From a virus: a stretch of DNA of 64,000 bases. Of the stretch, positions 6,762 through 28,561 are shown piece by piece. Position numbers and translations under genes: made by a program. Location of the stretch: positions 3,526 through 67,525 of the IMG/VR virus record IMGVR_UViG_3300021255_001584. One strand, given 5' to 3'. The notes beneath the pieces are model-generated. The model did no database searches and was not told the DNA's origin. It was given only the letters and a program-made list of their open reading frames with translations. Within the stretch, counting starts at the first letter, position 1; each line of letters starts with the position of its first letter.

Positions 6762-6957
6762 GTGGTAGGTTTAGCGCGCTACTATGGTGATATGCTACTA
6801 TGCTAAAGTGCTACTATGGTAGTATGGTAGTGCGATGAATTATTGTTGACTTTTTGTAAATTAGAGTGTACGTGCGGTCTAATTAACATAGGTTTAACTT
6901 GACTTCTTTCTTAAATCTTGATATACTATATATAGAAAAAGAACGGAGGACATCAAA

Positions 6958-7197
6958 ATGATGGATTACACTAAGGCGCAGGAAAAGGCTATTAACGACT
7001 ACCTGGCGGTATGTATTAAAAATAACTATTATTGCCAACATTGCGCGAAGAACGATAACGGCATTTGCTTCTTTGCTTTTCAGTGCTTCGCTAATGATAT
7101 GATGCACTTTGATGATGATGATGATTGCCCCTGTTCTATATGTTTTGAAGATAGTTTTAAAAATTGCACGAAAGGAGATTTGTTTTATGACTGTTAA
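6958..7197 (+). CDS. Cys-rich hypothetical protein
   Basis: GGAGG RBS, downstream of array promoter. Confidence 0.65.
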   Translation: MMDYTKAQEKAINDYLAVCIKNNYYCQHCAKNDNGICFFAFQCFANDMMHFDDDDDCPCSICFEDSFKNCTKGDLFYDC

Positions 7198-7444
7198 AGA
7201 ATTGATTAAGGAACTCCAGAAACTGCCCGAAGATGCTATTGTACTCGGTGACCCCTATCTTAATCAATATTGCATTATTGATAGTATTGATTATGATGAA
7301 GAAACTAATACTATTTCATTTTATGGCGAGGATATTTTTGAAGAACCCGACATCCCCGATGATGTAGACGAAACTAACTACGATCCATATATGGGTAGTA
7401 ATTATTATGATTATGACCCTACGGATTTAGGATGGGATATTTAA
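7187..7444 (+). CDS. acidic hypothetical protein (MTVKELIKELQKLPEDA type)
   Basis: AAGGAG RBS before ATG 7187; common phage N-terminal motif. Confidence 0.7.
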   Translation: MTVKELIKELQKLPEDAIVLGDPYLNQYCIIDSIDYDEETNTISFYGEDIFEEPDIPDDVDETNYDPYMGSNYYDYDPTDLGWDI

Positions 7445-7565
7445 CCCATCTTTTAATTTTATGTTAATTAAATTGTACGTGTCTTTCAATTTACATAAGT
7501 TTAACTTGACATATTAGAATTTTTCTGCTATACTTATACTATCAAATGAAGGGAGAATAATTAAT

Positions 7566-7784
7566 ATGTTTAAGATTGGTGATAAGGTATCGTTGAATTC
7601 TGCTCTTACAATGGATGGTTATATTGTGGGAATTAATATTGACCCTATTGAAGAATCAGATGTTAATTTTGAAAAAAATAATTGGGTAAATTATACCGTA
7701 AGAGTATTTAAGAATTTTTATAAAGATGGTTTTTTTGACTTCCTCCGTTCAGAAGATGAAATAACGATATGTGAGGAGAAATAA
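7566..7784 (+). CDS. hypothetical protein (FKIGDKV, SH3-like start)
   Basis: RBS and promoter in cassette. Confidence 0.7.
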   Translation: MFKIGDKVSLNSALTMDGYIVGINIDPIEESDVNFEKNNWVNYTVRVFKNFYKDGFFDFLRSEDEITICEEK

Positions 7785-7995
7785 TAAAATGATGCAACGT
7801 TATCAGGTAGCAGATAAGAAAATGCAAGCGCTTTGTTCGGCGGCTTGTGATGCAAAAGGTTTTATCTGGAATATCTTTTTTGGCTGGCGGCGAACGTGGC
7901 ACGATGGAGACACAGAAATTATGGAATTTCTGTTGCCACCGCGTTTGTATAATGATTTGCTTTGGGATTGCCGTTATTATTTTCCTAACTCATAG
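7771..7995 (+). CDS. hypothetical protein
   Basis: Second ORF of cassette; ends in a hairpin; start may be 7789. Confidence 0.6.
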   Translation: MRRNNKMMQRYQVADKKMQALCSAACDAKGFIWNIFFGWRRTWHDGDTEIMEFLLPPRLYNDLLWDCRYYFPNS

Positions 7996-8121
7996 AGTTA
8001 GGATTTTATTTTAAGGTTGTGTAAATTAGAGAGTACGTACTTTGTAGTTAACATAGTTTTAACTTGACAGAATACAATTTATAGTATATAATAAATACAT
8101 AAAAAGAAAGGAAATAAAAAT

Positions 8122-8805
8122 ATGGCATTGAAAGTTTTGAGCGACAATAATATTACTTGTGATACTCATGATAGCGGTATTTATTTCTTTGGCGAACGCG
8201 GTCTTACCCCTGATGGTGAATTACTTTGTTCTGTAAAGATTGGATGGGGCGGAGATTTGTCAAGACGTATTTCTCAATATAAGACCCACAGTTGTCAATT
8301 ATTTCATCAACAGTATCATGTTTTAACTAAAAAATTACCCATTCCGTCTGGGTATAATATGGAAACTTTTGCGCATTCTATGCTTGCGCTGCTCGCTATT
8401 GGTTTGCCTTCATATAGCCGTGAATGGTATTATGTAAGTGAACCAGTATATTTTGAATTGTGCAAAGACCCGTGGCAGATTTTTGATGTAAACAAGATGA
8501 AAGCATTAATTAAATTAGCAAAAGAAACTGAAAAAAATAATCGTTATTATATAAATAAAACTGAATATGATAAAATTTATAATCATGATAAAATGATGAC
8601 AGAACAAGTAATAGCGCGTGAAACAATTATTAAACAACAAGCAGAAGAAATTGAAACGCTAAATAAAACAAATCAATCTTATCTTGAACTTGTTCAAGCC
8701 TGCTCAAAAGTGGATAAATTAAAGCAGTATCATTATGAATATAGTGTTCGTTTTCATCTTGCTCCGTGGTGGAAGAAAATATTGATGGCGTTAAATATTA
8801 TTTAA
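8122..8805 (+). CDS. GIY-YIG / T5orf172-like domain protein with coiled-coil C-terminus
   Basis: GIYF...VKIG...RRISQY...E..AH...REWY. Confidence 0.6.
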   Translation: MALKVLSDNNITCDTHDSGIYFFGERGLTPDGELLCSVKIGWGGDLSRRISQYKTHSCQLFHQQYHVLTKKLPIPSGYNMETFAHSMLALLAIGLPSYSREWYYVSEPVYFELCKDPWQIFDVNKMKALIKLAKETEKNNRYYINKTEYDKIYNHDKMMTEQVIARETIIKQQAEEIETLNKTNQSYLELVQACSKVDKLKQYHYEYSVRFHLAPWWKKILMALNII

Positions 8806-8899
8806 GAGGGATTATTCCCTCTTTTTTTAATTGTGTGTAAATTGGAATGTACGTGCTTTGTAATTTACACTTATTTAATAAAAATAGGACGGTTACGCC

Positions 8900-9199
8900 C
8901 TATTCTTCTCCGTTATGTGCTTTATGCACTATTTCCAACAGACGTTTGAAAACATCCAATTCTAAGGAAGTCATATTTTTAGCTGCATCAGATTCAGGGT
9001 CATCAACCCAACTTTTCAGAAAATCTACGGCCTGGCCTACTTCATCAGAGAGGGTGTATTTTTGCAAGATAATATGGTCTTTATCTCTAAAAAGTTCAAG
9101 CGGATCGCCATCCTTAATACCCATAGTGCGGCGAAGTTCCTTCGGAATAACAATGCGGCCCAACTCATCAATGCGGCGAACGATACCAGTAGAAACCAT
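8900..9199 (-). CDS. abrB: AbrB/SpoVT-family transcription regulator
   Basis: STGIVRRIDELGRIVIPKELRRTMGI is the canonical AbrB N-domain; start revised to ATG at 9199 after GGAG. Confidence 0.88.
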   Translation of the reverse strand: MVSTGIVRRIDELGRIVIPKELRRTMGIKDGDPLELFRDKDHIILQKYTLSDEVGQAVDFLKSWVDDPESDAAKNMTSLELDVFKRLLEIVHKAHNGEE

Positions 9200-9325
9200 A
9201 TTTTTTATCTCCTTTGCTTTTCTTGTATATAGTATAACATAGAGTGGGTATAAAGTCAAGTTAAAAATAAGTAAACTATAATGAACGTACAATCTATTTA
9301 ACATTACCTTAAAGAAAAGAGGACT

Positions 9326-18486: not shown

Positions 18487-18627
18487 TCAAGTTAAGAAAT
18501 CGTTAATAATTTCTTTTATTGTAACCTCTTTGGAATCGCATTCAGTGTAATCTATATATATTTCCTCGTTCTCATCGGAGGCACAAAAGGTCATATCATC
18601 GGTGTCAATAGTTACAGTAATAATCAT
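18487..18627 (-). CDS. 46-aa acidic protein, family D (not in ORF track)
   Basis: MIITVTIDTDD...EIINDFLT; promoter and RBS. Confidence 0.75.
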   Translation of the reverse strand: MIITVTIDTDDMTFCASDENEEIYIDYTECDSKEVTIKEIINDFLT

Positions 18628-18751
18628 TTAACTATTCCCCTTTCGTTTTCTGTATATAGTATATATCATCCACACGCAGAAGTCAAGTTAATTATTAGTT
18701 AAATAGACTGTACGTGCAATCTATTTAACATAGAATTAAAAAGAAGGGTGA

Positions 18752-19153
18752 TTACTCACCCTCCGCAGGCTGGGATACAAGAGCCTTAAATCCCACGGTA
18801 TTAAGGTCTTTTACGACCTTGCGCGCGGCGCGCTTGCGTTCCTTTTCCTTTTCGGCGCGCTCTGCCTTTTCCTTGCGCTTCGCCGCTTTATCTGCGCGGT
18901 CGGCAAGCGTCAACTTCCAATCTTCGGCGGCGGCGTAACCGTCAAAGGGGATGTAACCGCCTTCGCCGTTACGCTCGCCACGCGGAATGCTGACCTTGAT
19001 AACAGCAAACTTTTCGTTGCCCTCGCTGTCCACAACAGGAAGGGCGAGTTCGCTTGCGCTAATCGGGAGAATGTCGCTGATGGGGTTCACGGCGTCAATG
19101 ATGGTCTGAAGGACGCGGTTGCGGATTTCGGTTTCAAGAGATGCTTTACTCAT
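18752..19153 (-). CDS. hypothetical protein, family B
   Basis: Same core, PFD motif, basic tail; start revised. Confidence 0.8.
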   Translation of the reverse strand: MSKASLETEIRNRVLQTIIDAVNPISDILPISASELALPVVDSEGNEKFAVIKVSIPRGERNGEGGYIPFDGYAAAEDWKLTLADRADKAAKRKEKAERAEKEKERKRAARKVVKDLNTVGFKALVSQPAEGE

Positions 19154-19228
19154 GGGCGTTATTCCTTTCTGGTTTGTGGTGTTTTCCTTCACCTTCTGGA
19201 ATTATTATAGCAGATGCGGCGGGAGAAG

Positions 19229-19369
19229 TCAAGTTAAGAAATCGTTAATTATTTCTTCTACTGATATTTCGGAAAGGTTACACGAGGAATAGTCAACAGA
19301 GATTTCTTGATCTTCATCAACCGCCCAAACAGAGTTATCATCAGTGTCAATCGTGATGTTAATAATCAT
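19229..19369 (-). CDS. 46-aa acidic protein, family D (not in ORF track)
   Basis: MIINITIDTDD...EIINDFLT; AAGGAG RBS. Confidence 0.75.
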   Translation of the reverse strand: MIINITIDTDDNSVWAVDEDQEISVDYSSCNLSEISVEEIINDFLT

Positions 19370-19494
19370 TTGACTTTCTCCTTTCACTTTCTATAATTAT
19401 TATAGCACAAATTCCATAAAAAGTCAAGTAAATTTTTTGTTAATTTGAATGAACGTGCAATCTAATTAACATTGAATTTAAGGAAAAGTCGGCT

Positions 19495-19941
19495 TTACGC
19501 CGACTTAACAAACTCTGCCAAAACCTCAAAAATCTGTTCGGGTTCATAGGCCGCGCCGCTTTCCCATGCTTCACGGTTCCGCGCTTCATCATCAAACAGG
19601 AAACCGCCGCCGCACGTTTCCCACTTGTTAGTGCCATAGGGGACGATTTTAATTTCATCCCATTTAACACTCGGCAAGTGGCGCCCAAGCCAAAACATTT
19701 TCGCGCCCGATACAAGCGCGTCATATTCCGGCGTGCTGGATTTTGAAAGCCACGAAATCACGCCGATTTCAAAACCCATTTTTTGCAGGCGATTCAGATA
19801 ACGCGCAAGGCGGGAAAGATTTACAAGCGGGCGGGCGATTTCATAGGGGGTCGGGTCGCTGTCAATCAGCATCGGGAGCCAATTTTCCACGCCGTAAAGG
19901 TCTGCAATCGTGCCGTCCATGTCAAACCAAATCTTTTTCAT
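19495..19941 (-). CDS. HAD-family phosphatase, 5'(3')-nucleotidase-like
   Basis: DMDGT motif I, K..WL, K...LFDD. Confidence 0.8.
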   Translation of the reverse strand: MKKIWFDMDGTIADLYGVENWLPMLIDSDPTPYEIARPLVNLSRLARYLNRLQKMGFEIGVISWLSKSSTPEYDALVSGAKMFWLGRHLPSVKWDEIKIVPYGTNKWETCGGGFLFDDEARNREAWESGAAYEPEQIFEVLAEFVKSA

Positions 19942-20063
19942 TCTGTGTTTTCCCCTTTCGTTTTTCTATATATAGTATATACGAAAAGCAATCAGAAGTC
20001 AAGTTAAGTATTTGTTAACTACATTGTACGTGTATTGTAATTAACATGGAATTAAAGCGGACA

Positions 20064-20273
20064 TTAAGTCCGCTCAACCACCATCAGAACCTCACCAGTT
20101 TCGGAATCGCACACGTCCGCAGTTGTAAAGTTATGCCGAATCAAAACCTCACAGACGTGTTCGGCAATATCATCCATATTATCACAGACGTATTCGCGAA
20201 GATTGAGAGTAGAGTTGTCATAGTAGAATACATCGGCGTGAGTGCTGTAAGTGTGATGAATGTTAATAGCCAT
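20064..20273 (-). CDS. hypothetical protein
   Basis: Single-gene cassette; DSETGEVL C-terminus. Confidence 0.7.
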   Translation of the reverse strand: MAINIHHTYSTHADVFYYDNSTLNLREYVCDNMDDIAEHVCEVLIRHNFTTADVCDSETGEVLMVVERT

Positions 20274-20383
20274 AGTCGGTATCCCCTTTCTTTTTTCTAT
20301 ATATATTATACTCTATTGTTTGAAAGAAGTCAAGTTAATTATTTGTTAATTTGATAGCACGTTGATTATAAATAAAGCGGATT

Positions 20384-20689
20384 TTACATTCCGCTTTGTT
20401 CCTTCCATTCTTTATACTTGTTGTCATAAATAGTGAACCAATGCAGACTGGTTATTGTACGTTCCCATGGTTCAAAACTCTTAATACCTCCATCCCATAA
20501 GCAGTAGAAAAAAATGATTATATGGATAGGAATAAATAACAGAATATAAATTAGCCATTTGACTTTCGCAGTCAGAATGACATCGGCATCATGCTCTATG
20601 GTATAACAGTTACAGCAGTATTTTATAAAAGGATGACGCTGTTTATAATTCATCAGGTAGGCAAAATCTTTGTAGCTAATCTTCTTCAT
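20384..20689 (-). CDS. hypothetical membrane protein
   Basis: Single-gene cassette with hydrophobic segment. Confidence 0.65.
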   Translation of the reverse strand: MKKISYKDFAYLMNYKQRHPFIKYCCNCYTIEHDADVILTAKVKWLIYILLFIPIHIIIFFYCLWDGGIKSFEPWERTITSLHWFTIYDNKYKEWKEQSGM

Positions 20690-21061
20690 AATTAGTAGCC
20701 CCTTTCATTTTCTATATACATTATATCAGCTTTCCAGCTTTGTGTCAAGTTAAGTTTATGTTAACTAGAACAGCTCCCAGCTCCGTGTTAAATTTATGTT
20801 AATTAGAATGCTTCGTGTTAGGCGCTCTCTAATTAACACAACCTTAACAACCGGAACACATCCGGCGATTAACATGAATTTAACAGTAGCTTTACCCAAA
20901 GTCAACACTTCCTTAACTCAGACATAACATTCACCTCTTTCCCTATATTCCACCATAGACTATTATAGCACAAAACCAGACCGTTGGCAAGTTAAATGTT
21001 TGTAAATTAGATTGCACGTGTATTCTAATTAACATAATTTCAATATAAGAAAAGAGGCTGA

Positions 21062-21268
21062 TTACATCAACCTCTTAAAATCTTTGGTAACATCAGTCAT
21101 ACTATGAGTAGACCATACTTCAATGTTGGTATAATGCTGCTTGTGGAGTTCCCAAACAATCTTATTCGCGGCGGCCGTAGTATGTGCGTAAACATGATTC
21201 AGATTGCCCTCAAAAGTGTCATACCAGATAGTGTAAAGCGGAAGATTCATGATGTCTGCCTCCTTCAT
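21062..21268 (-). CDS. hypothetical protein
   Basis: Single-gene cassette; start probably the Met after AAGGAGG. Confidence 0.65.
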   Translation of the reverse strand: MKEADIMNLPLYTIWYDTFEGNLNHVYAHTTAAANKIVWELHKQHYTNIEVWSTHSMTDVTKDFKRLM

Positions 21269-21640
21269 TTGATGGTTTAATTATATACCCAAAGCACTTA
21301 AAAGTCAAGTTAATAGTTAGTAAATTAGAGTAGGCGTTGAATCTAATTAACATTAGTATAATAAAAGCCGCGCGGTTAGCTACTCCGCGCGGTGGGCGTA
21401 AACATCATTGACTTGCCCAAGATCAATGGGGAACGGTTTTCGATCGTAAAGTGGGGTCAGTTCTCCACCGCCAAGTGGTCTGTTGCCCCTTGCATCAGTA
21501 GGGCGGCATCCTATCAACGCTCCTTTCTCCCTTTCGACAAGTCTATTATAGCAAAAAATACGATAGAAGTCAAGTTAAAAGATAGTTAATTAGATTATAC
21601 GTTGTGTCTAATTTACATATGCTTAATAAAAAGTGGAGGA

Positions 21641-21856
21641 TTAATCCTCCACATAGAACCGTGGGTAACGTCCGGTTTCATTGTTGCAATTGTAGAAACA
21701 GAACTCATTGTAGAAGTTATCAAAGTTGCGCCACATCCAACCGGGTTTCATGTGGACTGCGAACTGTGAATCAGGCCGCATGTTTGCGGGAACGATGACA
21801 AAGGGCTTGCCTTCCTTGTACAGTTTGCGTGCGATAGTCTTATTAATCTGTTTCAT
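21641..21856 (-). CDS. conserved small phage protein
   Basis: INK..ARKLY..G ... F.FYNCNNETGRY..FY. Confidence 0.7.
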   Translation of the reverse strand: MKQINKTIARKLYKEGKPFVIVPANMRPDSQFAVHMKPGWMWRNFDNFYNEFCFYNCNNETGRYPRFYVED

Positions 21857-22078
21857 TGAAACGTCCTCACTTTCAGGATATGTATTTCATTCCCCTTGGA
21901 ACAATTATATTATAGCAAATAAAAATGAAATTGTCAATATGAAATTAGGAAACTTAATTTGAAATTAACATAAGTTTTAGGATAGTCATATTGAAATGAA
22001 ATTGCGGAAAGTTAAAGGAAAGTAAAATAGAAATTACGTTGTATGTAATTAACATAGAATTAAAATGAAATTCGAGGA

Positions 22079-22462
22079 TTAATAATCCTCGAAATTTTCC
22101 CAGTTAACGCCACAGTCAAGCGCATGAATCATCTGTGCAAGGATATCGGCATGATGCACGCTAATATCACCGTGGTCCCACGGGAAACCAATGGTCTCCC
22201 ACCGTCCGCAATCATTCCAATCATTTTTTTCAACTTCGGGGTTGTAAAGGCCACTATAGCAAGGACTGCCATAACTTCCACTATGGCAAATAGCGTCGCT
22301 GTTAGGATAGTTTTTGAAGGTGACAACCCAACCATGCTGAAAATGGCTGACCTTATCAATATCAACACTATTCGCGCGACATGCGTTAATAAGGTCAACA
22401 AGGGAATTGATATAAGCGGCGTCGATCTGCTGATTGATGAAAGCAATTTCATTGTTAGTCAT
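22079..22462 (-). CDS. hypothetical protein
   Basis: DAICH.GSYG motif; start revised after GAGAGG. Confidence 0.7.
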   Translation of the reverse strand: MTNNEIAFINQQIDAAYINSLVDLINACRANSVDIDKVSHFQHGWVVTFKNYPNSDAICHSGSYGSPCYSGLYNPEVEKNDWNDCGRWETIGFPWDHGDISVHHADILAQMIHALDCGVNWENFEDY

Positions 22463-22598
22463 AGATGATAACCTCTCTTTCATTTGTTGTATATAGTATA
22501 ACATAATTTTTCTAAGAGGTCAAGTTAAATGATTGTGAAATACAATAAACGTTGTGTGTAATTAACATTAAAATAAAAATAAAACGCGGTTTCCCGCG

Positions 22599-22862
22599 TT
22601 AATCATGCCGAATCAAAATTACATTACTATAATGGGTAAGATATGTGATACCATCAATAGTAACTTGGACGACATCTGACTCGTTAAAATCGCGCCATGA
22701 ATCAATATCGCCGCTAACAACTTCATATGTTGGCGTAAAGACAACGGCTTCATCAAATCGTTGCTTTGTATCAAAGCCAATTTGACGATTACCGACTTGG
22801 CATCCAGTGAGGCACAGACAGGCGAGAACAAACAACATGATAGCAACAACAATCTTCTTCAT
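22599..22862 (-). CDS. putative lipoprotein
   Basis: MKK + hydrophobic stretch + LTGC lipobox. Confidence 0.7.
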   Translation of the reverse strand: MKKIVVAIMLFVLACLCLTGCQVGNRQIGFDTKQRFDEAVVFTPTYEVVSGDIDSWRDFNESDVVQVTIDGITYLTHYSNVILIRHD

Positions 22863-23044
22863 TTTGGGATACCGTTCCTTTCTGTGTTTCTATAGATAGT
22901 ATATCATAATCTTTATGAAATATCAAGTAAAAAATATGTAAAATACATAATACGTCTATTGTAATTAACAAACAATTAACTTGACGTTTTAGGATTTGTA
23001 TGCTATAATATTCTTGAAAGTTAGGAAAGCGAGGTATTTTTGAA

Positions 23045-23233
23045 ATGGAAGTTAAGTGCTATGTCGTTGAATTTAATTCTGCTCTTGATGGCCTGTTTGA
23101 GATTCTGGAAGATCATGGTTTTAATTCTTATAACTATCGACTTAGTAGTATATCTGGATATGTGGAAATTGGTGTTTGGTGTTATCCATACCAAATTCGG
23201 GAACTTGAAGAGATTTTCGCACCGTATGTCTAA
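23045..23233 (+). CDS. hypothetical protein
   Basis: GAGG RBS, promoter, hairpin over stop codon. Confidence 0.65.
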   Translation: MEVKCYVVEFNSALDGLFEILEDHGFNSYNYRLSSISGYVEIGVWCYPYQIRELEEIFAPYV

Positions 23234-23314
23234 CATACGGTTTTATTTTGAAATTATGTTAATTACACTTTACGTGTGATGTAATTAATATTGCGATAAC
23301 ATAAGTTATGGGAT

Positions 23315-23464
23315 TCACTCAAAAGTGAATCCCTGCATCATTTCATTAAAAGTCGGAAATGAAACCGGATCATCGGGATTGGCGAAATTATAATCCCACC
23401 ACATGTAAACCTGTTCCTGATCGGTCAAATCCTCCCATGTGCGAACAGTGTTGTGTTTAGTCAT
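23315..23464 (-). CDS. 49-aa hypothetical protein (not in ORF track)
   Basis: MTKHNTVRTWEDL...GFTFE; single-gene cassette. Confidence 0.6.
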   Translation of the reverse strand: MTKHNTVRTWEDLTDQEQVYMWWDYNFANPDDPVSFPTFNEMMQGFTFE

Positions 23465-23588
23465 TTTAGGACACTCCCCTTTCGTTTGTTTCTGTAATGA
23501 TTATATCATATCAGAAATGAAATGTCAAGTTAAAGGATGGTTAATTACATTCAACGTTGTGTTTAATTAACATAAATTTAAAATGAAA

Positions 23589-23729
23589 TTACGGGAGTAT
23601 TAACTCCCGTACTTTCCATTCCATTCCTGTGCAATGTGTACGCCATTCGGCCGCGGCCTGTGCCTCGTCAAAACGGAAATAACGCGCGCTACCTTGAAAA
23701 CCATTGCAATCAATAACGTAAATCTTCAT
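23589..23729 (-). CDS. 46-aa hypothetical protein (not in ORF track)
   Basis: MKIYVIDCNG...RELILP; single-gene cassette. Confidence 0.6.
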   Translation of the reverse strand: MKIYVIDCNGFQGSARYFRFDEAQAAAEWRTHCTGMEWKVRELILP

Positions 23730-23974
23730 TTTAGGAAATCCCCTTTCTTTTCTGTTCTGTATATATTATAGCAAAATGGAAATGAAATGTCAAGTTAAAG
23801 GATTGTAAAATAGGATTTACGTTTGATGTAATTAACATAAAATTAAAATGAAATTTGACTTTGAAATTAAATTCTGTCTAAATATTGTCATAACATAAAT
23901 TTAATTTTGTACTTGCTATGGTTTCGGGATTGTGGTATAATATAATTACAAAGAAAAAAGGAGTGAATTTCAAA

Positions 23975-24145
23975 ATGAAACGTACTCGTAATAGTTTGTC
24001 TTATAAGATTAAAATGTGGTATTATCGGTTGACTTTTAGGGATATTAAACGCGCCTTAAAAACTGGTTGTTCTTTTGCTTTTGAATTTATAATTGGACTT
24101 TTGGGATTTATTTTATTCTTTATTTTTCCTGCACTATTTCATTAA
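23975..24145 (+). CDS. small membrane protein
   Basis: AAGGAG RBS; hydrophobic C-terminus; start revised. Confidence 0.6.
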   Translation: MKRTRNSLSYKIKMWYYRLTFRDIKRALKTGCSFAFEFIIGLLGFILFFIFPALFH

Positions 24146-24273
24146 AATAAAATGAAATGGGTCTAAGTTTCGGGAATGTAAATAAAGGAATTATAGAAAT
24201 GGGTTAAGTTTTAGAAAATTAAAATAAACGTATTTTGTAATTAACATAAGAATAAACTAGAAGGAAACGGGAT

Positions 24274-24534
24274 TTAACCCCGTTTCCTATTCTTGTAAAA
24301 GCTGGCTTTGTTCTGATTGAAACGGTCGTATGCGCTTACTTGTCTATAACTGTTATATTCTGTTTCGGTGATTTCTTTACCATAGATTGCCATGCGTGTA
24401 TGCTTTACGCTTGGCATCCTGCGCGCCTTGTCACATGCTTCAAGTAGATTGTTCGCCGCGATTGCGAACTTAATTTCAGTGCTATGACCTGTTCCGCAAT
24501 GACCTCTGTGACACATCACCATAAAGTACCTCAT
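24274..24534 (-). CDS. hypothetical basic protein
   Basis: GHCGTG...ARRMPSVKH; single-gene cassette. Confidence 0.7.
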   Translation of the reverse strand: MRYFMVMCHRGHCGTGHSTEIKFAIAANNLLEACDKARRMPSVKHTRMAIYGKEITETEYNSYRQVSAYDRFNQNKASFYKNRKRG

Positions 24535-24671
24535 TGTTAAGTCTCCTTTCGTTTCTTTCTAGGTATATTGTACCAAAAAGTTGAGAAGTTGTCAAGTTAA
24601 GTGTTTGTTAATTACACCTGACGTTGAGTTTAATTAACATAGCAGCTTCCAGCTGCAATGTTAAGTTTATG

Positions 24672-24914
24672 TTAAAAATCGCTTATCGGAAAAACTGCAT
24701 GAGCAGCTACCACTATGCCGCCATATTTTTTAGCAGCTGTGATTGCGCTTTTGTAACTGTTGCAGCTGCGGAATAGCCACCAGCTCCCATCCAGCTCTGA
24801 CCAATGTAGCACTTGCCACGGCTTTTCAAGGGCGTACTCATGGACATTGTACACCTTGAGCATACCTGCGGGCGCCTCAATGGAATTAACATAATCATAA
24901 TTTGGACTTAACAT
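24672..24914 (-). CDS. hypothetical protein
   Basis: AGGAGG RBS; last cassette of the array. Confidence 0.6.
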   Translation of the reverse strand: MLSPNYDYVNSIEAPAGMLKVYNVHEYALEKPWQVLHWSELDGSWWLFRSCNSYKSAITAAKKYGGIVVAAHAVFPISDF

Positions 24915-25234
24915 GGATTTAACCTCCTCTTAACCTACTTTTAACTTACTTAACTTTTCTTTAACATACTTCCATTATCATAAGTATACCATACTTATAT
25001 TAAGGTACAAGCCTAATTATATTATATTTATGTAAAGTCAAGTGTTAAATGTGTGTAAATTAGAAGTGCTGTCTACTCTAATTAACATTGCTTAACATTA
25101 AGTTAGGCTTGCCTAACTCGCGCGCCGGCCGAAGCCGAGGTTAACATAAACTTAACAAAAATTTAACAGCGCGCGAAGCCGAGGTTGGCCGTGACTAACT
25201 GGCGGTGAAAAAAAGAGGGCTCGCGCCCTCTTTA

Positions 25235-25537
25235 TTAGCCCTGCCTGTAGGTGTAATAATCGCATCCACAGCTTGCGGCCTGCCACTCGGCAAGGTCTTC
25301 AGCGCTGACGTCGTAGCGGCCAATTTCGTCCCAATACGCGTCAGCCTTGACGTGAAATATAGCAACTTGCATTGCGTACTTCATGGTCATACCGTTTTCA
25401 GCTTCAATGACGCCGCCATGCTGGCCGTCAAGGTAGATAGTCGCGGAGGGCTTGCCGTTGTTGTAGTTGTAGACGATAGTCGCAATGTGGTTCCCGCTGA
25501 TAACATAGGTGACGATGCCGCAGTTGATGATCTTCAT
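25235..25537 (-). CDS. hypothetical protein (GC-rich operon)
   Basis: AAGGAGG RBS; terminator at 25209-25233. Confidence 0.75.
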   Translation of the reverse strand: MKIINCGIVTYVISGNHIATIVYNYNNGKPSATIYLDGQHGGVIEAENGMTMKYAMQVAIFHVKADAYWDEIGRYDVSAEDLAEWQAASCGCDYYTYRQG

Positions 25538-25593
25538 GATTGTATCCTCCTTTTATTTGGTTGGTTGGGAGGGCTTGCGCCCTCCCGTGTTAA

Positions 25594-25791
25594 TTACAGT
25601 CGCCCCGCACGTTCCTGCATGATGCGGCGGGTATTGCCCTCGGGGATGCAGTAGGTCCAGAAGCGGTTGTGGTTGCGGCGGATGCGGCGACGCTGGCGCA
25701 TTTTGCGCTCAATGTTGCGCCAGGTGTAGCAGTAGTTAACAGGGTCGTTGGGGTTCAGACGGCAAGCCTTATTGATGCGGATGGACTTCAT
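25594..25791 (-). CDS. Arg-rich hypothetical protein (GC-rich operon)
   Basis: AAGGAGG RBS. Confidence 0.7.
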   Translation of the reverse strand: MKSIRINKACRLNPNDPVNYCYTWRNIERKMRQRRRIRRNHNRFWTYCIPEGNTRRIMQERAGRL

Positions 25792-25844
25792 AGTATTTAC
25801 CTCCTTTATTGTCGGTGGGAGGGCTTGCGCCCTCCCTTCGTTGG

Positions 25845-26150
25845 TCAGATGTTCGCGAAGTGATATTCAGCGTAGCAGTTGGTGAAGGTAGTGCCGCAGC
25901 GCAGGTAGGTCATTGCCGTGCGGTAATCCATGCGTTCCGGTACTTGGATAGCGATACCGAACAGCTTGAGTTCGCGCTCATTCCCGTAGGGATTGCCGAA
26001 CCCGTCGGTCACCACGTACTGGTAACCGGAGCCAATGCGCTTGAATCCATAGAGGTTCCAGTTCCAGCGAAGCACGCGCTCAGCGCGCTTGAGAATCTGT
26101 TCAGCTTCCTGCGCGAACATGGTATAGATGATGATGGTATTGTACTTCAT
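25845..26150 (-). CDS. hypothetical protein (GC-rich operon)
   Basis: Start revised to MKYNT after AAAGGGGA. Confidence 0.7.
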   Translation of the reverse strand: MKYNTIIIYTMFAQEAEQILKRAERVLRWNWNLYGFKRIGSGYQYVVTDGFGNPYGNERELKLFGIAIQVPERMDYRTAMTYLRCGTTFTNCYAEYHFANI

Positions 26151-26217
26151 GATTATATCCCCTTTCAATATCGTTGGTTGATGTGGCAGGGGCTTGCGCC
26201 CCTGCCGTGGTCGGTTG

Positions 26218-26745
26218 TTAGTCGTCATTCGGGTTGACGATAACGTCAACCTGTACTCCGCGAAGTGCGCCAACCCAAACGCCGTCCAGCGCTTTGGCGA
26301 CAATCTTTTCCCATGCTCTCGCATAGGGAGCGTTCGGGCAACCTGCATCCGGCTGGATATCGTCCCACTTGGTCAGGTCGGTCGGGTACAGCTGGTCAGG
26401 AGTGCCGAAGGTCTGCATGACCTTGCCAGCTTCGGTGCCCATGACTTTCAGCTGATTGCAAGTCACTTTCAGCACACCGAAGGTGTTGACCTGCGCAGCG
26501 TCCATGCGGTCAATGGCGTGCAGGATGCGCGCCTTGGTGTATAGCGCAACGAACACGGAGCCGTTGTGCATGTTCATGCGGCTATTGCCACGCTTGATGA
26601 ACGCGATAGCCACGTAGTCAGCGCGACTGACTTCGTTCAAGTACCAGCGAGCAGCGTCGTAGACGTTCAGCCCCACGGGTACATCCTTGGCGAAGGGCAC
26701 AAAGCGGCCACCCTTGCCCTTGACTTCAATGCGAGTGTTTTCCAT
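26218..26745 (-). CDS. hypothetical protein (first gene of GC-rich operon)
   Basis: AAGGAG RBS, biased codon usage. Confidence 0.75.
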   Translation of the reverse strand: MENTRIEVKGKGGRFVPFAKDVPVGLNVYDAARWYLNEVSRADYVAIAFIKRGNSRMNMHNGSVFVALYTKARILHAIDRMDAAQVNTFGVLKVTCNQLKVMGTEAGKVMQTFGTPDQLYPTDLTKWDDIQPDAGCPNAPYARAWEKIVAKALDGVWVGALRGVQVDVIVNPNDD

Positions 26746-27174
26746 GGTTCAAGCTCCTTTCAATTTAGGCATACTAATGCCCGGTAGGTCGTTTCAGCTT
26801 GTGTGCCCGAACGCAGGAAGCGCCACAAGGCACACGTCGAGAATGTTAACAGGGGCCTAGTACAGTTCCAGCGCTTGCGTATAGGTGGGGGGAAATCCGT
26901 TGCCTGTACTTTACACGATTTGCCTACTATGGGCACACGGGTAGTGTGGTAGCAAACTCCTCGTCTCAACAGGTTTCGCGCCTGCGGGCTTGTACTAGGT
27001 TCAATTTTCAAGGTTCGGTGTCGGTATTTCCCTTACCGGCAAAGCCATTATAACACCGTATGGCCGGAAATACATAATCCGGGGGAATATTGCGGGATTC
27101 CAGCATTTTTTCGGGCTGAACGGGCCGGTACCTGCCCAAATTCCACCAACCGCCGAAAATCCTAACCCAAATAC

Positions 27175-27203
27175 TTGACAAATCCCCTAAAATATGGTAA
27201 ACT
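27175..27203 (+). promoter_or_regulatory. rightward promoter at start of packaging/virion module
   Basis: TTGACA-17-TAAACT. Confidence 0.6.
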
Positions 27204-27247
27204 TTAAAATGAAGGAAGTTGTATCTCCCAAATGGAGATGTAAGCAC

Positions 27248-28561
27248 ATGAAAAAGAAATACTCACTCGACTACTCTATCGAACGTGACATAGACCGTCT
27301 TCACGCAGTAGAAGAAATCCTTGACACGCTTGAAACCAACCCTACCAATTCTGAACTAGAACAAATGGCCTCCTACATCCTCTACGGTAAAGATGAAGAA
27401 GGCAAAAACGCGGTCCAGCGCGGCGAAACCACCGACTCTGATAAACGCTACAAATCGTTTCAACGCGCCGCAGACAAAGTTCACTCCCTTGACGAAATTC
27501 TAGACAATCCACTAGGCGACCAACAATCTCTCCAAACTCTAGAATCTCGCTACATTTATACAAAGAAAAAACCAACCATTCGCCGCCCCAAATATGACAA
27601 AACCACCGGCAAACTAATTGACCCCGGCGACAGCGATGTCCCAGGCATGACTCAACTCTGGGAAACTATCGACCGCCTAGACCACATCAAAGCCGTAAAC
27701 GAGGGCACAATCCCACCAGACGAAGATACTCAAATCTTCACCGACTCCTATCGTTTCTATCAATTTAAACACGCCCTCATAGACATCAAGCGTCACCAAT
27801 ACTATCTTAAAGATAGCTACAAACCCACGCTCCACTTCCTTGCTATCACGCCACCCAAAGCTCAAACCTACGACTGGGATACCGACTCCGCTTATTGGAT
27901 GCCATTATCCCAATGGCAAGACCGCGTAGACAACGCTCTCCTCCACACTATCTCCCACAACCTAGAAGATTACGAAACTCGCCTGAACCCCACAACCGGA
28001 GAAAAAGAAGTGAAATGGGTGGTACGCCGCCACACTTTTGATTGGGAAAATCCTGCCCATATCAGGGCCCTCATCAATCATTACAGTGCCATTTACATGG
28101 AATTGGGCGAGAAACTTGATAGCTGGGGCCGCACCCTAATTTATGATTTTGACCGCTATTTTGATATGGTAGGATTTTCACCTGTGCGCGAATACATTCT
28201 TACACGCAAGATAGATAAAGCTCCATATCCCACTATTGTGGCCGAATTACAAGAAAAATTTGGTCTAAAATACAACGAAAACCATCTCTGCACAATCCTC
28301 TCCAAGGAAATCCCCGAGAAGATGGCAGCCGCCGCAACCAAACACCGTATGCTTCTCACCACACCACAATCTGAACGCAAACAATGCTTTACTTGTAAAC
28401 AATGGTTGCCGCGCAATAACTATTTTTTCGCTACCAACAACAGCCGAAAAGACAAATTCGCCTCCAACTGTAAAGAATGTGAACGCAAAAAACGCATAGC
28501 AAAAGGAGGTCAATCACAATATGACAGACGCAATAAAGACTCGGCGTTGCCTAAAATGTAA
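27248..28561 (+). CDS. hypothetical protein with C-terminal Zn finger, possibly DNA-binding
   Basis: CFTC...CKEC; start revised after GGAG. Confidence 0.65.
   Translation: MKKKYSLDYSIERDIDRLHAVEEILDTLETNPTNSELEQMASYILYGKDEEGKNAVQRGETTDSDKRYKSFQRAADKVHSLDEILDNPLGDQQSLQTLESRYIYTKKKPTIRRPKYDKTTGKLIDPGDSDVPGMTQLWETIDRLDHIKAVNEGTIPPDEDTQIFTDSYRFYQFKHALIDIKRHQYYLKDSYKPTLHFLAITPPKAQTYDWDTDSAYWMPLSQWQDRVDNALLHTISHNLEDYETRLNPTTGEKEVKWVVRRHTFDWENPAHIRALINHYSAIYMELGEKLDSWGRTLIYDFDRYFDMVGFSPVREYILTRKIDKAPYPTIVAELQEKFGLKYNENHLCTILSKEIPEKMAAAATKHRMLLTTPQSERKQCFTCKQWLPRNNYFFATNNSRKDKFASNCKECERKKRIAKGGQSQYDRRNKDSALPKM

What the first reader, a model, noticed from the sequence alone, without database searches (positions are those of the whole stretch)
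6856..25086. Array of about 33 gene cassettes bounded by a conserved 32-bp palindrome: candidate phage cassette-shuffling or multi-operator system
Seen: 34 copies of GTWAATTAGA-N4-ACGT-N4-TRTAATTAAC. Length is fixed at 32 bp apart from one 40-bp variant, with the dyad centred on CG, and spacing is 204-1199 bp. All copies are intergenic once starts are corrected, and I saw none outside this interval. Each interval typically holds a complete unit: promoter, RBS, one to three short genes or RNAs, and a terminator. Sites also sit between convergent genes where there is no promoter to regulate (8837, 11107, 12733, 23258, 24214). Known: loxP/dif-type recombination sites have this size and symmetry, T4-like PeSL elements promote shuffling of early-gene modules, and the SPbeta repeated element is bound by the recombinase-fold repressor MrpR. 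Inference: the sites either mark recombination boundaries of an integron-like accessory array with self-promoted cassettes, or form a region-wide binding array. No recombinase is in this window.
Basis: partly seen in the sequence, partly recalled or inferred. Interest (0 to 1): 0.95.

Follow-up and report, generated by a model that had tools for sequence, protein, structure and literature searches.

The report
Palindrome joints between phage gene cassettes
An uncultured large phage keeps its small early genes as self-contained promoter-gene-terminator units separated by one conserved 32-letter palindrome, which looks like a protein docking site and is also the place where related phages have gained, lost and flipped units.

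Summary
There are 33 copies of the 32-bp palindrome plus one 40-bp variant at 6856-25086, against none expected by chance and none elsewhere in the record. Each copy is the core of a roughly 54-bp symmetric element (TTAA-N6-site-N6-TTAA) lying between a terminator and a consensus sigma-70 promoter. The dyad sits 27.5 bp, less often 38.5 bp, upstream of the -35 hexamer. The two arms are conserved base by base but do not co-vary. That pattern fits a double-stranded protein-binding site, not a hairpin.

Ten further IMG/VR contigs carry such arrays; 185,579 bacterial and archaeal genomes and the two nearest described phages do not.

Relatives keep cassette order but differ by at least 10 whole-cassette indels whose junctions lie in or beside a site. 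There is also one block inversion and one relocation. Crossover points vary. The complete 184-kb relative has no tyrosine or serine recombinase but does have a Sak4-type recombinase.

Best reading: a boundary operator of unknown binder that doubles as a PeSL-like recombination joint, not an integron-like system. This scan has noted analogous arrays in other phages.

The parts
6856..25086 (.). Whole array: 34 boundary sites, about 45 consensus-type sigma-70 promoters, about 40 small genes
6856..6887 (.). site 1; promoter(+) on right, -35 at 6899
7463..7494 (.). site 2; terminator(+) left, promoter(+) right
8021..8052 (.). site 3; terminator(+) left, promoter(+) right
8837..8868 (.). site 4; between convergent units, no promoter
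9271..9302 (.). site 5; promoter(-) left, terminator(-) right
10098..10129 (.). site 6; divergent promoters on both sides
10643..10674 (.). site 7; terminator left, promoter(+) right
11107..11138 (.). site 8; convergent terminators on both sides
12069..12100 (.). site 9; divergent promoters, both at 27.5 bp
12733..12764 (.). site 10; convergent terminators on both sides
13299..13330 (.). site 11; promoter(-) left, terminator(-) right
13638..13669 (.). site 12; promoter(-) left, terminator(-) right
14417..14448 (.). site 13; promoter(-) left at 38.5 bp; junction site against G003 (3736 + 4050)
15293..15324 (.). site 14; promoter(-) left at 38.5 bp
16492..16523 (.). site 15; promoter(-) left at 38.5 bp, terminator right; junction site against G001
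17249..17280 (.). site 16; promoter(-) left, terminator right
18006..18037 (.). site 17; promoter(-) left at 38.5 bp
18698..18729 (.). site 18; promoter(-) left, terminator(-) right
19439..19470 (.). site 19; promoter(-) left
20014..20045 (.). site 20; promoter(-) left
20345..20376 (.). site 21, right arm degenerate; promoter(-) left, terminator(-) right
20798..20837 (.). site 22: the 40-bp variant, same arms with a 20-bp centre
21002..21033 (.). site 23; promoter(-) left, terminator(-) right
21320..21351 (.). site 24, centre GGCGTT; promoter(-) left
21585..21616 (.). site 25; promoter(-) left, terminator(-) right
22022..22053 (.). site 26; only a degenerate promoter left, terminator(-) right
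22535..22566 (.). site 27; promoter(-) left, terminator right; one end of the block that is inverted in contig C218
22938..22969 (.). site 28; divergent promoters, both at 27.5 bp
23258..23289 (.). site 29; convergent, no promoter; with site 30 it collapses to a single site in G003
23540..23571 (.). site 30; promoter(-) left, terminator right
23805..23836 (.). site 31; promoter(-) left; a (+) promoter lies 92.5 bp to the right
24214..24245 (.). site 32; convergent, no promoter; other end of the block inverted in C218
24607..24638 (.). site 33; promoter(-) left, terminator(-) right
25055..25086 (.). site 34, terminal, centre CTGT in place of ACGT; conserved in G001 and G003
24908..24965 (+). 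Ladder of TTAAC boxes at 11-bp period in the leader of the last cassette
25141..25167 (+). Three further TTAAC boxes at 11-bp period, between two copies of CGAAGCCGAGGTT

Best explanation
The 32-bp palindrome is the core of a roughly 54-bp two-fold symmetric DNA element: TTAA, 6 bp, GTWAATTA.A....ACGT....T.TAATTWAC, 6 bp, TTAA. It marks the boundaries of the self-contained transcription units (promoter, 1-3 small genes, terminator) that make up the presumed early-gene array of a large, uncultured siphovirus-type phage, probably of a Firmicute. I take it to be a double-stranded docking site for a still unidentified sequence-specific protein, dimeric or larger, probably one that also reads the 11-bp-phased TTAAC boxes fused to the -35 hexamers. 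This protein would co-regulate or insulate the roughly 30 site-linked host-type promoters. Because the same element recurs at nearly every unit boundary and reads alike in both orientations, it also serves as a short patch of homology. At this patch, homology-directed recombination (a Sak4-type recombinase is encoded by the complete relative) has repeatedly inserted, deleted, inverted and moved whole units. The T4-type PeSL elements do the same.

Shown here: the sites, their geometry, their position-specific conservation without arm co-variation, their restriction to this phage clade, and junctions of cassette rearrangements in or at sites.

Inferred: protein binding, the direction of regulation (activation, shut-off or roadblock), early timing, and homologous rather than site-specific recombination.
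For: (1) The sites are not chance: 33 positions against 0.00 expected, plus a 40-bp variant. All lie within 18 kb of the 67.5-kb record. In the complete 184-kb relative G001 they lie only at 22.7-40 kb.

(2) Geometry. In 244 unique sites from 15 stretches of 11 contigs, 193 have one or two flanking sigma-70-type promoters. Of those 216 promoters, the -35 starts 27.5 bp from the dyad in 171, 38.5/39.5 bp in 28 and 22.5 bp in 8 (window alone).

(3) TTAAC-N6-TTAAC boxes occur 26 times in the window against 0.32 expected, all inside the array. In G001, 22 of 23 lie in the array.

(4) Of 33 sites, 21 have a scan-called terminator within 45 bp, with the U-tract ending at the TTAA box. The site therefore lies in an untranscribed gap (by reading).

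(5) Among 153 unique sites, arm positions 1, 2, 4, 5, 7, 8, 10, 15 and 16 are 90-100% conserved. At the variable positions 3, 6, 11, 12 and 14, complementarity equals the permuted expectation. That fits two independently read half-sites.

(6) Site-linked promoters match the consensus less often than internal ones. Perfect 12/12 matches: 31 of 109 against 31 of 42 among promoters with TTAAC abutting the -35 (Fisher p = 7.5e-7; copies are not independent).

(7) Rearrangements. 24 of the 32 inter-site intervals defined by the 33 32-bp sites have a counterpart in G001, all in the same order and orientation; 8 have none. Ten indel events equate one site in one genome with two sites plus 1-5 cassettes in another. 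Flanks switch parent inside or beside the site. One block of about 1.5 kb is inverted between sites in another contig and one gene is relocated to another site.

(8) No PF00589 or PF00239 recombinase in G000, G001 or G002, with positive controls working. An AAA_24/Sak4-type recombinase is present in G001 (E 1e-48) and G002.
Against: No binding protein was found. The only clear DNA-binding domain in the array, an AbrB/MazE-type gene at 8900-9196, is absent from all five relatives tested. No OmpR-type or HU-type domain is present, and only sub-threshold HTH_3 hits. The conserved small proteins have no family or fold match.

51 of 244 sites have no adjacent promoter, which a pure promoter operator does not need.

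The fixed spacing, and the 11-bp step to 38.5 bp, could come from common descent and slippage of 11-bp boxes rather than from selection on helical phase.

The promoters are already near consensus, so activation is not obviously needed.

Homology available for recombination is short: 32 bp at about 75-85% identity, and only about 10-bp arms in inverted orientation. That is little for general recombination and leaves room for a dedicated enzyme.

Crossover intervals rest on diverged genomes (67-95% identity) and 3 of 10 events are noisy.

There are no expression or read-level data.
Confidence: 0.6

Rival explanations
1. A dedicated site-specific recombination system, integron-like or invertase-like. 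An unrecognised phage recombinase, or a host enzyme, binds the two arms and cuts at or near the central ACGT. Because the centre is symmetric, it could excise, insert and invert cassettes.
For: Every change of gene orientation in the array happens at a site. There are clean events in which the two recombining sites share no flanking homology and the junction lies inside the 32 bp (intervals 14-21, 19-21, 20-24). A block inversion has a site at its right junction, and inverted homology there is very short for general recombination.
Against: No tyrosine or serine recombinase in the window's record, the complete relative or the 80%-complete relative. Crossover intervals are not one point: 28-32 (50 of 51 diagnostic positions), 25-49, 50-54 and 62-64 exclude the centre. 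Breaks of homology also fall at promoters that have no site. Order and orientation are otherwise stable across genomes of 67-90% identity. Central sequences differ between sites, which would block strand exchange by a tyrosine recombinase (established knowledge, recalled).
Confidence: 0.12
2. No dedicated protein. The AT-rich element with phased TTAA(C) boxes is an intrinsic upstream (UP-like, curved) element read by the alpha subunits of the host RNA polymerase. It was built back to back, so it can serve promoters on either side, and it spread with the promoter module by descent.
For: The promoter-side arm and TTAAC box occupy about -57 to -36, where UP elements lie (established knowledge, recalled). 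TTAAC boxes also precede promoters that have no palindrome. Three sites in the window serve divergent promoters on both sides at 27.5 bp (10098, 12069, 22938).
Against: G1, C32 and the central ACGT at about -62 are 90-100% conserved, which UP elements do not require. The far arm, at about -78 to -69, is as conserved as the near arm. 51 of 244 sites have no promoter at all yet keep both arms and both TTAA boxes.
Confidence: 0.12
3. A nucleic-acid structure: a DNA cruciform or an RNA hairpin. It could serve as a back-up terminator, an RNase III site, or a hairpin promoter of the kind used by N4-like virion RNA polymerases.
For: It is a palindrome with a 4-nt centre, and it follows terminators.
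Against: Arms pair at only 8-14 of 16 positions. Variable positions show no compensatory change, with observed complementarity equal to permuted at positions 3, 6, 11, 12 and 14. The sites lie between the terminator U-tract and the next start site, so they are mostly untranscribed. Separate G+C-rich terminators are present. The 5344-aa ORF is a tape measure protein, not a virion RNA polymerase. No Rfam family matched.
Confidence: 0.04
4. A titration or architectural array. About 34 high-affinity sites per genome copy soak up a host DNA-binding protein, or organise the region for replication or segregation, with the TTAAC ladder acting as iterons.
For: Many copies are confined to one region. 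An 11-bp-period TTAAC ladder flanks the terminal site and is conserved in relatives.
Against: The fixed spacing to promoters and terminators points to transcription. No array, only 5 single chance-level hits, was found in 185,579 bacterial and archaeal genomes, so nothing suggests a host regulon with this operator. No ParB-like or Rep-like protein was looked for.
Confidence: 0.05

Closest known systems
PeSL (promoter-early stem-loop) elements of T4-type myoviruses (PMC2839356, abstract and passages read; PMC4122927, abstract read)
   Same: Both are composite repeated elements of a strong sigma-70-like promoter next to a terminator stem-loop, and both flank small non-essential genes in a hyperplastic region. 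Close relatives differ by insertion, deletion or replacement of whole units with breakpoints in the repeats. The authors propose homologous recombination over short patches. Units are transcriptionally insulated.
   Different: Here the conserved core is a separate AT-rich 32-bp (54-bp with boxes) two-fold symmetric sequence lying between the terminator and the promoter. It is conserved base by base and does not co-vary, and the terminators themselves are not conserved in sequence. Sites also stand between convergent units that have no promoter. The promoters carry 11-bp-phased TTAAC boxes. The lineage is unrelated: a siphovirus type with a giant tape measure, whose nearest described phages infect Firmicutes. 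Mini-circles could not be tested.
SPBRE, the SPbeta repeated element bound by the master repressor MrpR (PMC10516654, abstract and passages read)
   Same: One conserved motif repeated in many intergenic promoter regions of a large Firmicute phage. It was predicted in silico long before its binder was found, and it acts as a multi-copy operator.
   Different: SPBRE is a 15-bp motif at about 9-10 promoters of a temperate phage, and its binder, with a tyrosine-recombinase fold, is known. Here there are 34 copies of a 32-bp dyad in one array. No integrase-fold gene was found in the complete relative, the binder is unknown, and there is a documented role as a rearrangement junction.
Integron attC sites with IntI
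   Same: An array of gene cassettes, each bounded by an imperfect palindrome. Cassette content varies between relatives at those boundaries.
   Different: No tyrosine recombinase. attC sites conserve structure rather than sequence (recalled), which is the opposite of what one search shows. Cassettes here carry their own promoters and terminators. Both orientations occur. Crossover points vary.
Host-takeover module of Bacillus phage SPO1, and stoperators of cluster A mycobacteriophages (both recalled, not read here)
   Same: SPO1 has a dense block of small early genes with many strong host-type promoters and terminators. Stoperators are dozens of copies of one operator spread over a phage genome and bound by one regulator.
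   Different: I recall no conserved palindromic boundary element for SPO1. Stoperators are short, asymmetric, lie within transcribed DNA and are oriented with transcription. These sites are symmetric and lie in untranscribed gaps.

Membership tests
PeSL-type regulatory cassette joints | Composite repeat of a strong sigma-70-like promoter and an adjacent terminator stem-loop | tested here: met
   28 of 33 window sites have a flanking promoter and 21 of 33 have a scan-called terminator within 45 bp.
PeSL-type regulatory cassette joints | Many copies in a variable region of small genes without known homologues | tested here: met
   34 copies in 18 kb. Of the 30 array proteins scanned against Pfam, 26 had no match with E below 0.001; the 4 with a match were T5orf172, MazE/AbrB, NT5C and a zinc ribbon.
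PeSL-type regulatory cassette joints | Indel or replacement breakpoints between relatives map to the repeats | tested here: met
   10 site-to-site indel events. Crossover intervals lie in or within about 40 bp of the site. 27 of 73 homology-block ends lie within 40 bp of a dyad, 37% against 15% for random positions.
PeSL-type regulatory cassette joints | Excised mini-circles formed by recombination between neighbouring repeats | not testable with these tools
The listed runs are kept only as contigs.
PeSL-type regulatory cassette joints | The repeat consists only of promoter and terminator, with no separate conserved operator-like core | tested here: not met
   A separate 32-bp dyad with 90-100% conserved positions lies between the two. 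It is therefore filed as a variant, not a member.
Integron (attC / IntI) | Tyrosine recombinase encoded with the array | tested here: not met
   PF00589: 0 matches in G000, G001 (100% complete) and G002. The control matched in 14 of 14 genomes.
Integron (attC / IntI) | Sites conserved in folded structure, variable in sequence | tested here: not met
   Sequence is conserved and there is no excess complementarity at variable positions.
Serine invertase / resolvase sites (hix, res) | Serine recombinase gene present | tested here: not met
   PF00239: 0 matches in G000, G001 and G002. The control matched in 12 of 14 genomes.
Site-specific recombination sites in general | One fixed crossover point at the site centre | tested here: inconclusive
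   Intervals 14-21, 19-21 and 20-24 lie near the centre. Intervals 28-32, 25-49, 50-54 and 62-64 do not. The genomes are diverged, so later changes could blur the positions.
Multi-copy phage operator (SPBRE/MrpR-like, stoperator-like) | One conserved motif at many promoters of one phage, at a fixed position | tested here: met
   171 of 216 flanking promoters have the -35 at 27.5 bp from the dyad.
Multi-copy phage operator (SPBRE/MrpR-like, stoperator-like) | A cognate DNA-binding protein encoded by the phage | tested here: inconclusive
   The AbrB-type gene occurs only in this window. PF00486 and PF00216 gave no match and PF01381 was sub-threshold. Only part of the 184-kb relative was examined protein by protein.
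Multi-copy phage operator (SPBRE/MrpR-like, stoperator-like) | Binding and regulation shown | not testable with these tools
   Needs EMSA, pull-down or reporter assays.

The most novel reading that the evidence does not exclude
The 54-bp symmetric element is the substrate of a dedicated, so far unrecognised phage machine. A protein with no detectable similarity to known recombinases or regulators, for example one of the clade-conserved early proteins of unknown fold, would bind every unit boundary. It would both insulate the units and actively catalyse their excision, insertion and inversion. This would amount to an integron without an integrase, confined to one lineage of large gut phages.
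Probability: 0.12. Interest if true: 0.9.

Novelty: new variant of a known kind. Interest (0 to 1): 0.6.

Why it matters
Phage early regions hold most of the unknown host-takeover and anti-defence genes. How they turn over so fast without breaking regulation is only partly understood, and the one described mechanism (PeSLs) comes from T4-type phages of Gram-negative hosts.

This array shows the same logic in an unrelated lineage of large gut phages, with two additions. First, there is a sharply defined, testable sequence element that must be read by a protein. Second, natural comparative evidence covers at least ten insertions or deletions, an inversion and a relocation at that element.

Finding the binder would give a handle on coordinated control of about 30 strong promoters. 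It would also show whether such joints are passive homology patches or active recombination sites. The element and its promoter grammar could also serve as a marker for early, exchangeable gene cassettes in metagenomic phage contigs.

Tried and rejected
**Hairpin or cruciform reading.** Rejected on the co-variation test, arm pairing of 8-14 of 16 and the absence of any Rfam match.

**N4-like hairpin promoters.** Rejected. The 5344-aa ORF has a PhageMin_Tail domain and so is a tape measure.

**AbrB-type gene (8900-9196) as the binder.** Rejected as the conserved binder. PF04014 is absent from G001-G005, and its cassette has no DNA or protein counterpart in relatives.

**Other binder searches, all blank:**
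- OmpR-type (PF00486) and HU-type (PF00216): no match.
- HTH_3: only sub-threshold hits far from the array.

**The 340-aa and 232-aa conserved array proteins as a hidden recombinase.** Rejected by reading. They carry DEDDh exonuclease motifs and match a PHROG annotated as a polymerase exonuclease subunit.

**Family B (three conserved paralogues with Lys/Ala-rich tails).**
- Folded twice: pLDDT 89 for the whole protein, 87 for the N-domain.
- Foldseek best E 0.38-0.6, to SPO1 Acb4 and the Tn916 integrase N-domain.
- VIA best Z 3.7 for the N-domain. For the whole protein the only matches (Z 5.9) were to the long helix.
- No assignment follows.

**Sigma-like protein (27194-28561).**
- PHROG 'sigma factor', E 9e-17.
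- No Pfam match and no PDB sequence match.
- Atlas leads to GerE only at 0.80-0.81, which is chance level.

**Other checks that found nothing:**
- Megablast and blastn of the array and of one unit against 50,697 phage records: no match.
- Literature: the motif words occur only in unrelated contexts. A search on early promoters, palindromes and intergenic repeats listed nothing on this lineage (titles and abstract starts only). Supplements were not consulted.

**Sequencing runs.** No RNA holder was listed. The holders are animal gut metagenome runs kept as contigs: four from one sample that may be the source, and two bovine runs at 0.36-0.37 of words. None was laid, so I draw nothing from them on habitat or expression.

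**Limits of the counts:**
- pools three pairwise comparisons that share events.
- Searches count paralogous and orthologous copies that are not independent.
- In one search only flanks with a BLAST match of at least 130 bp and a score margin of 1.5 were used, so most sites have at most one assigned flank.
- In one search, events 2, 8 and 10 are noisy: 37-39 of 47, 37 of 42 and 17 of 24 diagnostic positions fit.
- The left junction of the C218 inversion is not clean, with about 330 bp of AT-rich unrelated DNA next to site 2587.
- The inverted module in G004 is only 67% identical and its site there is degenerate.

Full report
**Observation**

No match occurred in 100 dinucleotide-preserving shuffles. 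The 34th copy is the 40-bp variant at 20798-20837, with the same arms around a 20-bp centre. Spacing is 204-1199 bp, and no copy overlaps any of the 40 genes in my gene model. The window is bases 3526-67525 of a 67.5-kb IMG/VR virus record rated 38% complete. There are no further copies in the rest of that record.

**Anatomy**

Reading 50 bp on each side and building a symmetrised consensus shows that the conserved element is longer than 32 bp. A TTAA box lies 6 bp outside each arm, which gives TTAA-N6-GTWAATTA.A....ACGT....T.TAATTWAC-N6-TTAA.

On the promoter side the box reads TTAAC and abuts a TTGACA-17-TATAAT promoter.
- In the window, 24 promoters start their -35 exactly 27.5 bp from a dyad, 4 at 38.5 bp and 1 at 22.5 bp.
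- With a slightly looser promoter rule, 28 of 33 sites have one or two flanking promoters and 5 have none.
- The dyad therefore lies near -62 or -73. That figure is my numbering, an inference.

On the other side, 21 of 33 sites have a terminator-like hairpin within 45 bp. Only 2 hairpins with four or more G-C pairs lie away from a site. The terminator's T-run ends at the TTAA box, so the site sits in a gap that is probably not transcribed (by reading).

About 14 further consensus promoters in the array have TTAAC boxes but no palindrome. At least 6 of these abut the stop codon of the upstream gene. The palindrome therefore marks transcription-unit boundaries, not promoters as such. Every change of gene orientation in the array occurs at a site:
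- divergent at 10098, 12069, 22938 and 23805;
- convergent at 8837, 11107, 12733, 23258 and 24214.

TTAAC-N6-TTAAC occurs 26 times in the window against 0.32 expected, always inside the array. This includes a six-box ladder at 24908-24965.

**A DNA site, not a folded structure**

The arms pair at only 8-14 of 16 positions. I pooled 161 sites from six genomes, 153 of them unique. Positions 1, 2, 4, 5, 7, 8, 10, 15 and 16 are 90-100% conserved on both arms. At the variable positions 3, 6, 11, 12 and 14, complementarity between arms equals what random re-pairing of left and right halves gives. Only positions 9, 13 and 15 exceed that expectation, and these follow two sub-families along the array. 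Alternating fixed and free positions argue for selection on specific bases. Missing co-variation argues against a hairpin or cruciform. Two half-sites read by a symmetric protein is the simplest account, but it is inferred.

**Who carries it**

The window encodes a portal, a terminase-like protein, a 5344-aa tape measure and a sigma-like protein. Its portal is about 30% identical to those of large siphoviruses of Enterococcus, Lactococcus and Bacillus and of the gut phage Phass-1. Many promoters carry the TG-extended -10. I infer a Firmicute host.

Pattern scans of IMG/VR found several sites each on ten further contigs. One of these, G001, is a complete 184,104-bp genome with terminal repeats. 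In G001 all sites lie at 22.7-40 kb, and 22 of 23 TTAAC-N6-TTAAC boxes lie in the same region.

The same pattern found only 5 isolated hits in one genome each of 185,579 bacterial and archaeal species. It found none in Phass-1 or Enterococcus phage VRE9_3.

Over 244 unique sites from all stretches, 51, 170 and 23 have 0, 1 and 2 flanking promoters. Of the 216 promoters, 171 lie at 27.5 bp.

I cut the arrays at the 33 32-bp sites, which gives 32 inter-site intervals. Of these, 24 have a counterpart in G001, all in the same order and relative orientation, and 8 have none. Order is therefore largely stable while content is not.

A flank-orthology screen found ten events in which one site in one genome corresponds to two sites plus 1-5 cassettes in another. 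Examples:
- WIN 14417 = G003 3736 + 4050.
- G003 13240 = WIN 23258 + 23540.
- G001 and G004 have a single site where the window has 8021 ... 9271, which enclose the T5orf172 and AbrB-type cassettes.

In the cleanest cases the left flank matches one parent at 59 of 60 positions and the right flank matches the other at 58 of 60. The two parental sites share no flanking homology, so the exchange lay inside the 32 bp.

Diagnostic positions place the crossovers at site coordinates 19-21, 20-24, 14-21, 28-32, 20-38 and 25-49, and in weaker cases at -3..-1, 50-54, 62-64 and 69-71. They are in or next to the site, but not at one point.

Of 73 ends of homology blocks in three pairwise comparisons:
- 27 lie within 40 bp of a dyad (37%, against 15% of random positions);
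- 18 lie away from sites and promoters (25% against 58%);
- some lie at promoters without sites.

Beyond indels, three rearrangements were seen:
- Contig C218 carries WIN 22560-24049 inverted (78.8% identity over 1502 bp) between directly oriented flanks. The right junction is at a site; the left junction is near one but not clean.
- G004 has the family-B1 gene relocated to another site.
- G004 has one module inverted at 67% identity.

**Enzymes**

No tyrosine or serine recombinase domain was found in the window's record, in the complete G001 or in G002, with positive controls working. G001 and G002 encode an AAA_24 (Sak4-type) recombinase at E 1e-48 and 2e-47. RecT, ERF and RecA were not found.

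Varying crossover points, breaks at other repeats, and the gene content together favour homology-directed exchange over a dedicated site-specific enzyme. The available homology is short, though, so I leave 0.12 for the latter.

**The binder**

The array holds one clear DNA-binding domain, an AbrB/MazE-type protein at 8900-9196 (E 1e-12). That cassette is unique to the window. OmpR-type and HU-type domains are absent, and HTH_3 hits are sub-threshold and distant.

The clade-conserved array proteins are:
- two DEDDh exonuclease paralogues;
- an NT5C-like nucleotidase;
- a zinc-ribbon protein;
- an 86-aa protein;
- three paralogues with Lys/Ala-rich helical tails.

The Lys/Ala-tailed family folds confidently but matches no solved structure convincingly. 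The binder is unknown.

One further hint of regulatory coupling: among promoters with TTAAC abutting the -35, site-linked ones are perfect consensus in 31 of 109 cases, against 31 of 42 for internal ones (p = 7.5e-7). The copies are not independent.

**Mechanism, committed**

I think a sequence-specific protein binds the symmetric element at each unit boundary and acts on transcription of the neighbouring units. Because the promoters are near consensus, I lean to shut-off or insulation rather than activation. The repeated element also provides the joints for homology-directed cassette exchange. Confidence is 0.6 for the combined statement. It is higher (about 0.8) for 'protein-read DNA boundary element' and for 'preferred rearrangement junction' taken separately, and low for the direction of regulation.

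**Comparison with known systems**

The closest described system is the PeSL of T4-type phages (PMC2839356, passages; PMC4122927, abstract). PeSLs have the same architecture and the same evolutionary behaviour, but no separate conserved dyad, and they occur in an unrelated lineage.

SPBRE/MrpR of SPbeta (PMC10516654, passages) is the closest multi-copy operator: 15 bp, about 10 copies, binder known.

Integron attC sites fail on three tested features.

My literature searches listed nothing on this motif or lineage. Supplements were closed.

This scan has earlier noted analogous palindrome-punctuated cassette arrays in other uncultured phages, each with its own motif. I did not test those notes.

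**Verdict**

The feature is real, strongly non-random and clade-wide. It is a new variant of a known kind: a PeSL-like joint with an operator-like core. Interest 0.6.

Noticed in passing
41814-57848 (+): A single 5344-aa ORF in the structural module with a PhageMin_Tail domain at residues 539-746. It is a tape measure protein of exceptional length. No other domain was found in the remaining 4,500 residues or so.
   Followed up: partly
8900-9196 (-): An AbrB/SpoVT/MazE-type DNA-binding protein (Pfam E 1e-12) starting MVSTGIVRRIDELGR. It is carried as a cassette found only in this window and absent from five relatives.
   Followed up: yes
15365-16387 (-) and 9326-10024 (-): Two diverged paralogues (about 27% identical) with DEDDh 3'-5' exonuclease motifs (DTET near the N-terminus, H..LDD near the C-terminus). 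Both are conserved at 72-92% in all array-bearing relatives examined. They are the largest genes of the array.
   Followed up: partly
13690-14025 (-), 10297-10620 (+), 18752-19153 (-): Three paralogues, each conserved across the clade. Each has a small alpha + three-strand N-domain followed by a long Lys/Ala-rich helix. The models are confident (pLDDT 87-89) but no solved structure matches convincingly. They are possible nucleic-acid binders.
   Followed up: partly
24908-24965 and 25141-25167: Six plus three TTAAC boxes at 11-bp period flank the terminal variant site (25055, centre CTGT). The second set lies between two copies of CGAAGCCGAGGTT. The block is conserved in G001 and G003 although the gene to its left is replaced.
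   Followed up: partly
27194-28561 (+): A 455-aa protein matching a PHROG annotated as sigma factor (E 9e-17), with a C-terminal four-cysteine motif. It is 82-99% identical in all relatives and lies directly between the array and the packaging genes. It has no Pfam or PDB sequence match.
   Followed up: partly
19495-19941 (-) and 8122-8805 (+): An NT5C-like 5'-nucleotidase that is conserved in relatives, and a T5orf172-domain protein found only in this window. Both are array cassettes.
   Followed up: no
21900-24250; also locus L146 (reverse strand, about 2300-2600): A second short repeat, AAATGAAAT(T), recurs next to sites in the right-hand part of the array. It forms a dense run in the relative that carries the inversion.
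   Followed up: no
6856-21033 versus 21320-24638: Two site sub-families lie along the array: centres like TGYACGTRCA on the left, and centres like ..ACGTTG.. or ATACGT on the right. The same gradient is seen in G001.
   Followed up: partly
14105-15235, 17726-17950, 10175-10250: Perfect-consensus promoters followed by short stretches without an ORF of 30 codons or more in my model. ARAGORN and Rfam found nothing there.
   Followed up: no
24001-28000: G+C rises to 0.44-0.51 at the right end of the array and in the four conserved genes of unknown function at 25235-26745. Elsewhere it is 0.28-0.42.
   Followed up: no
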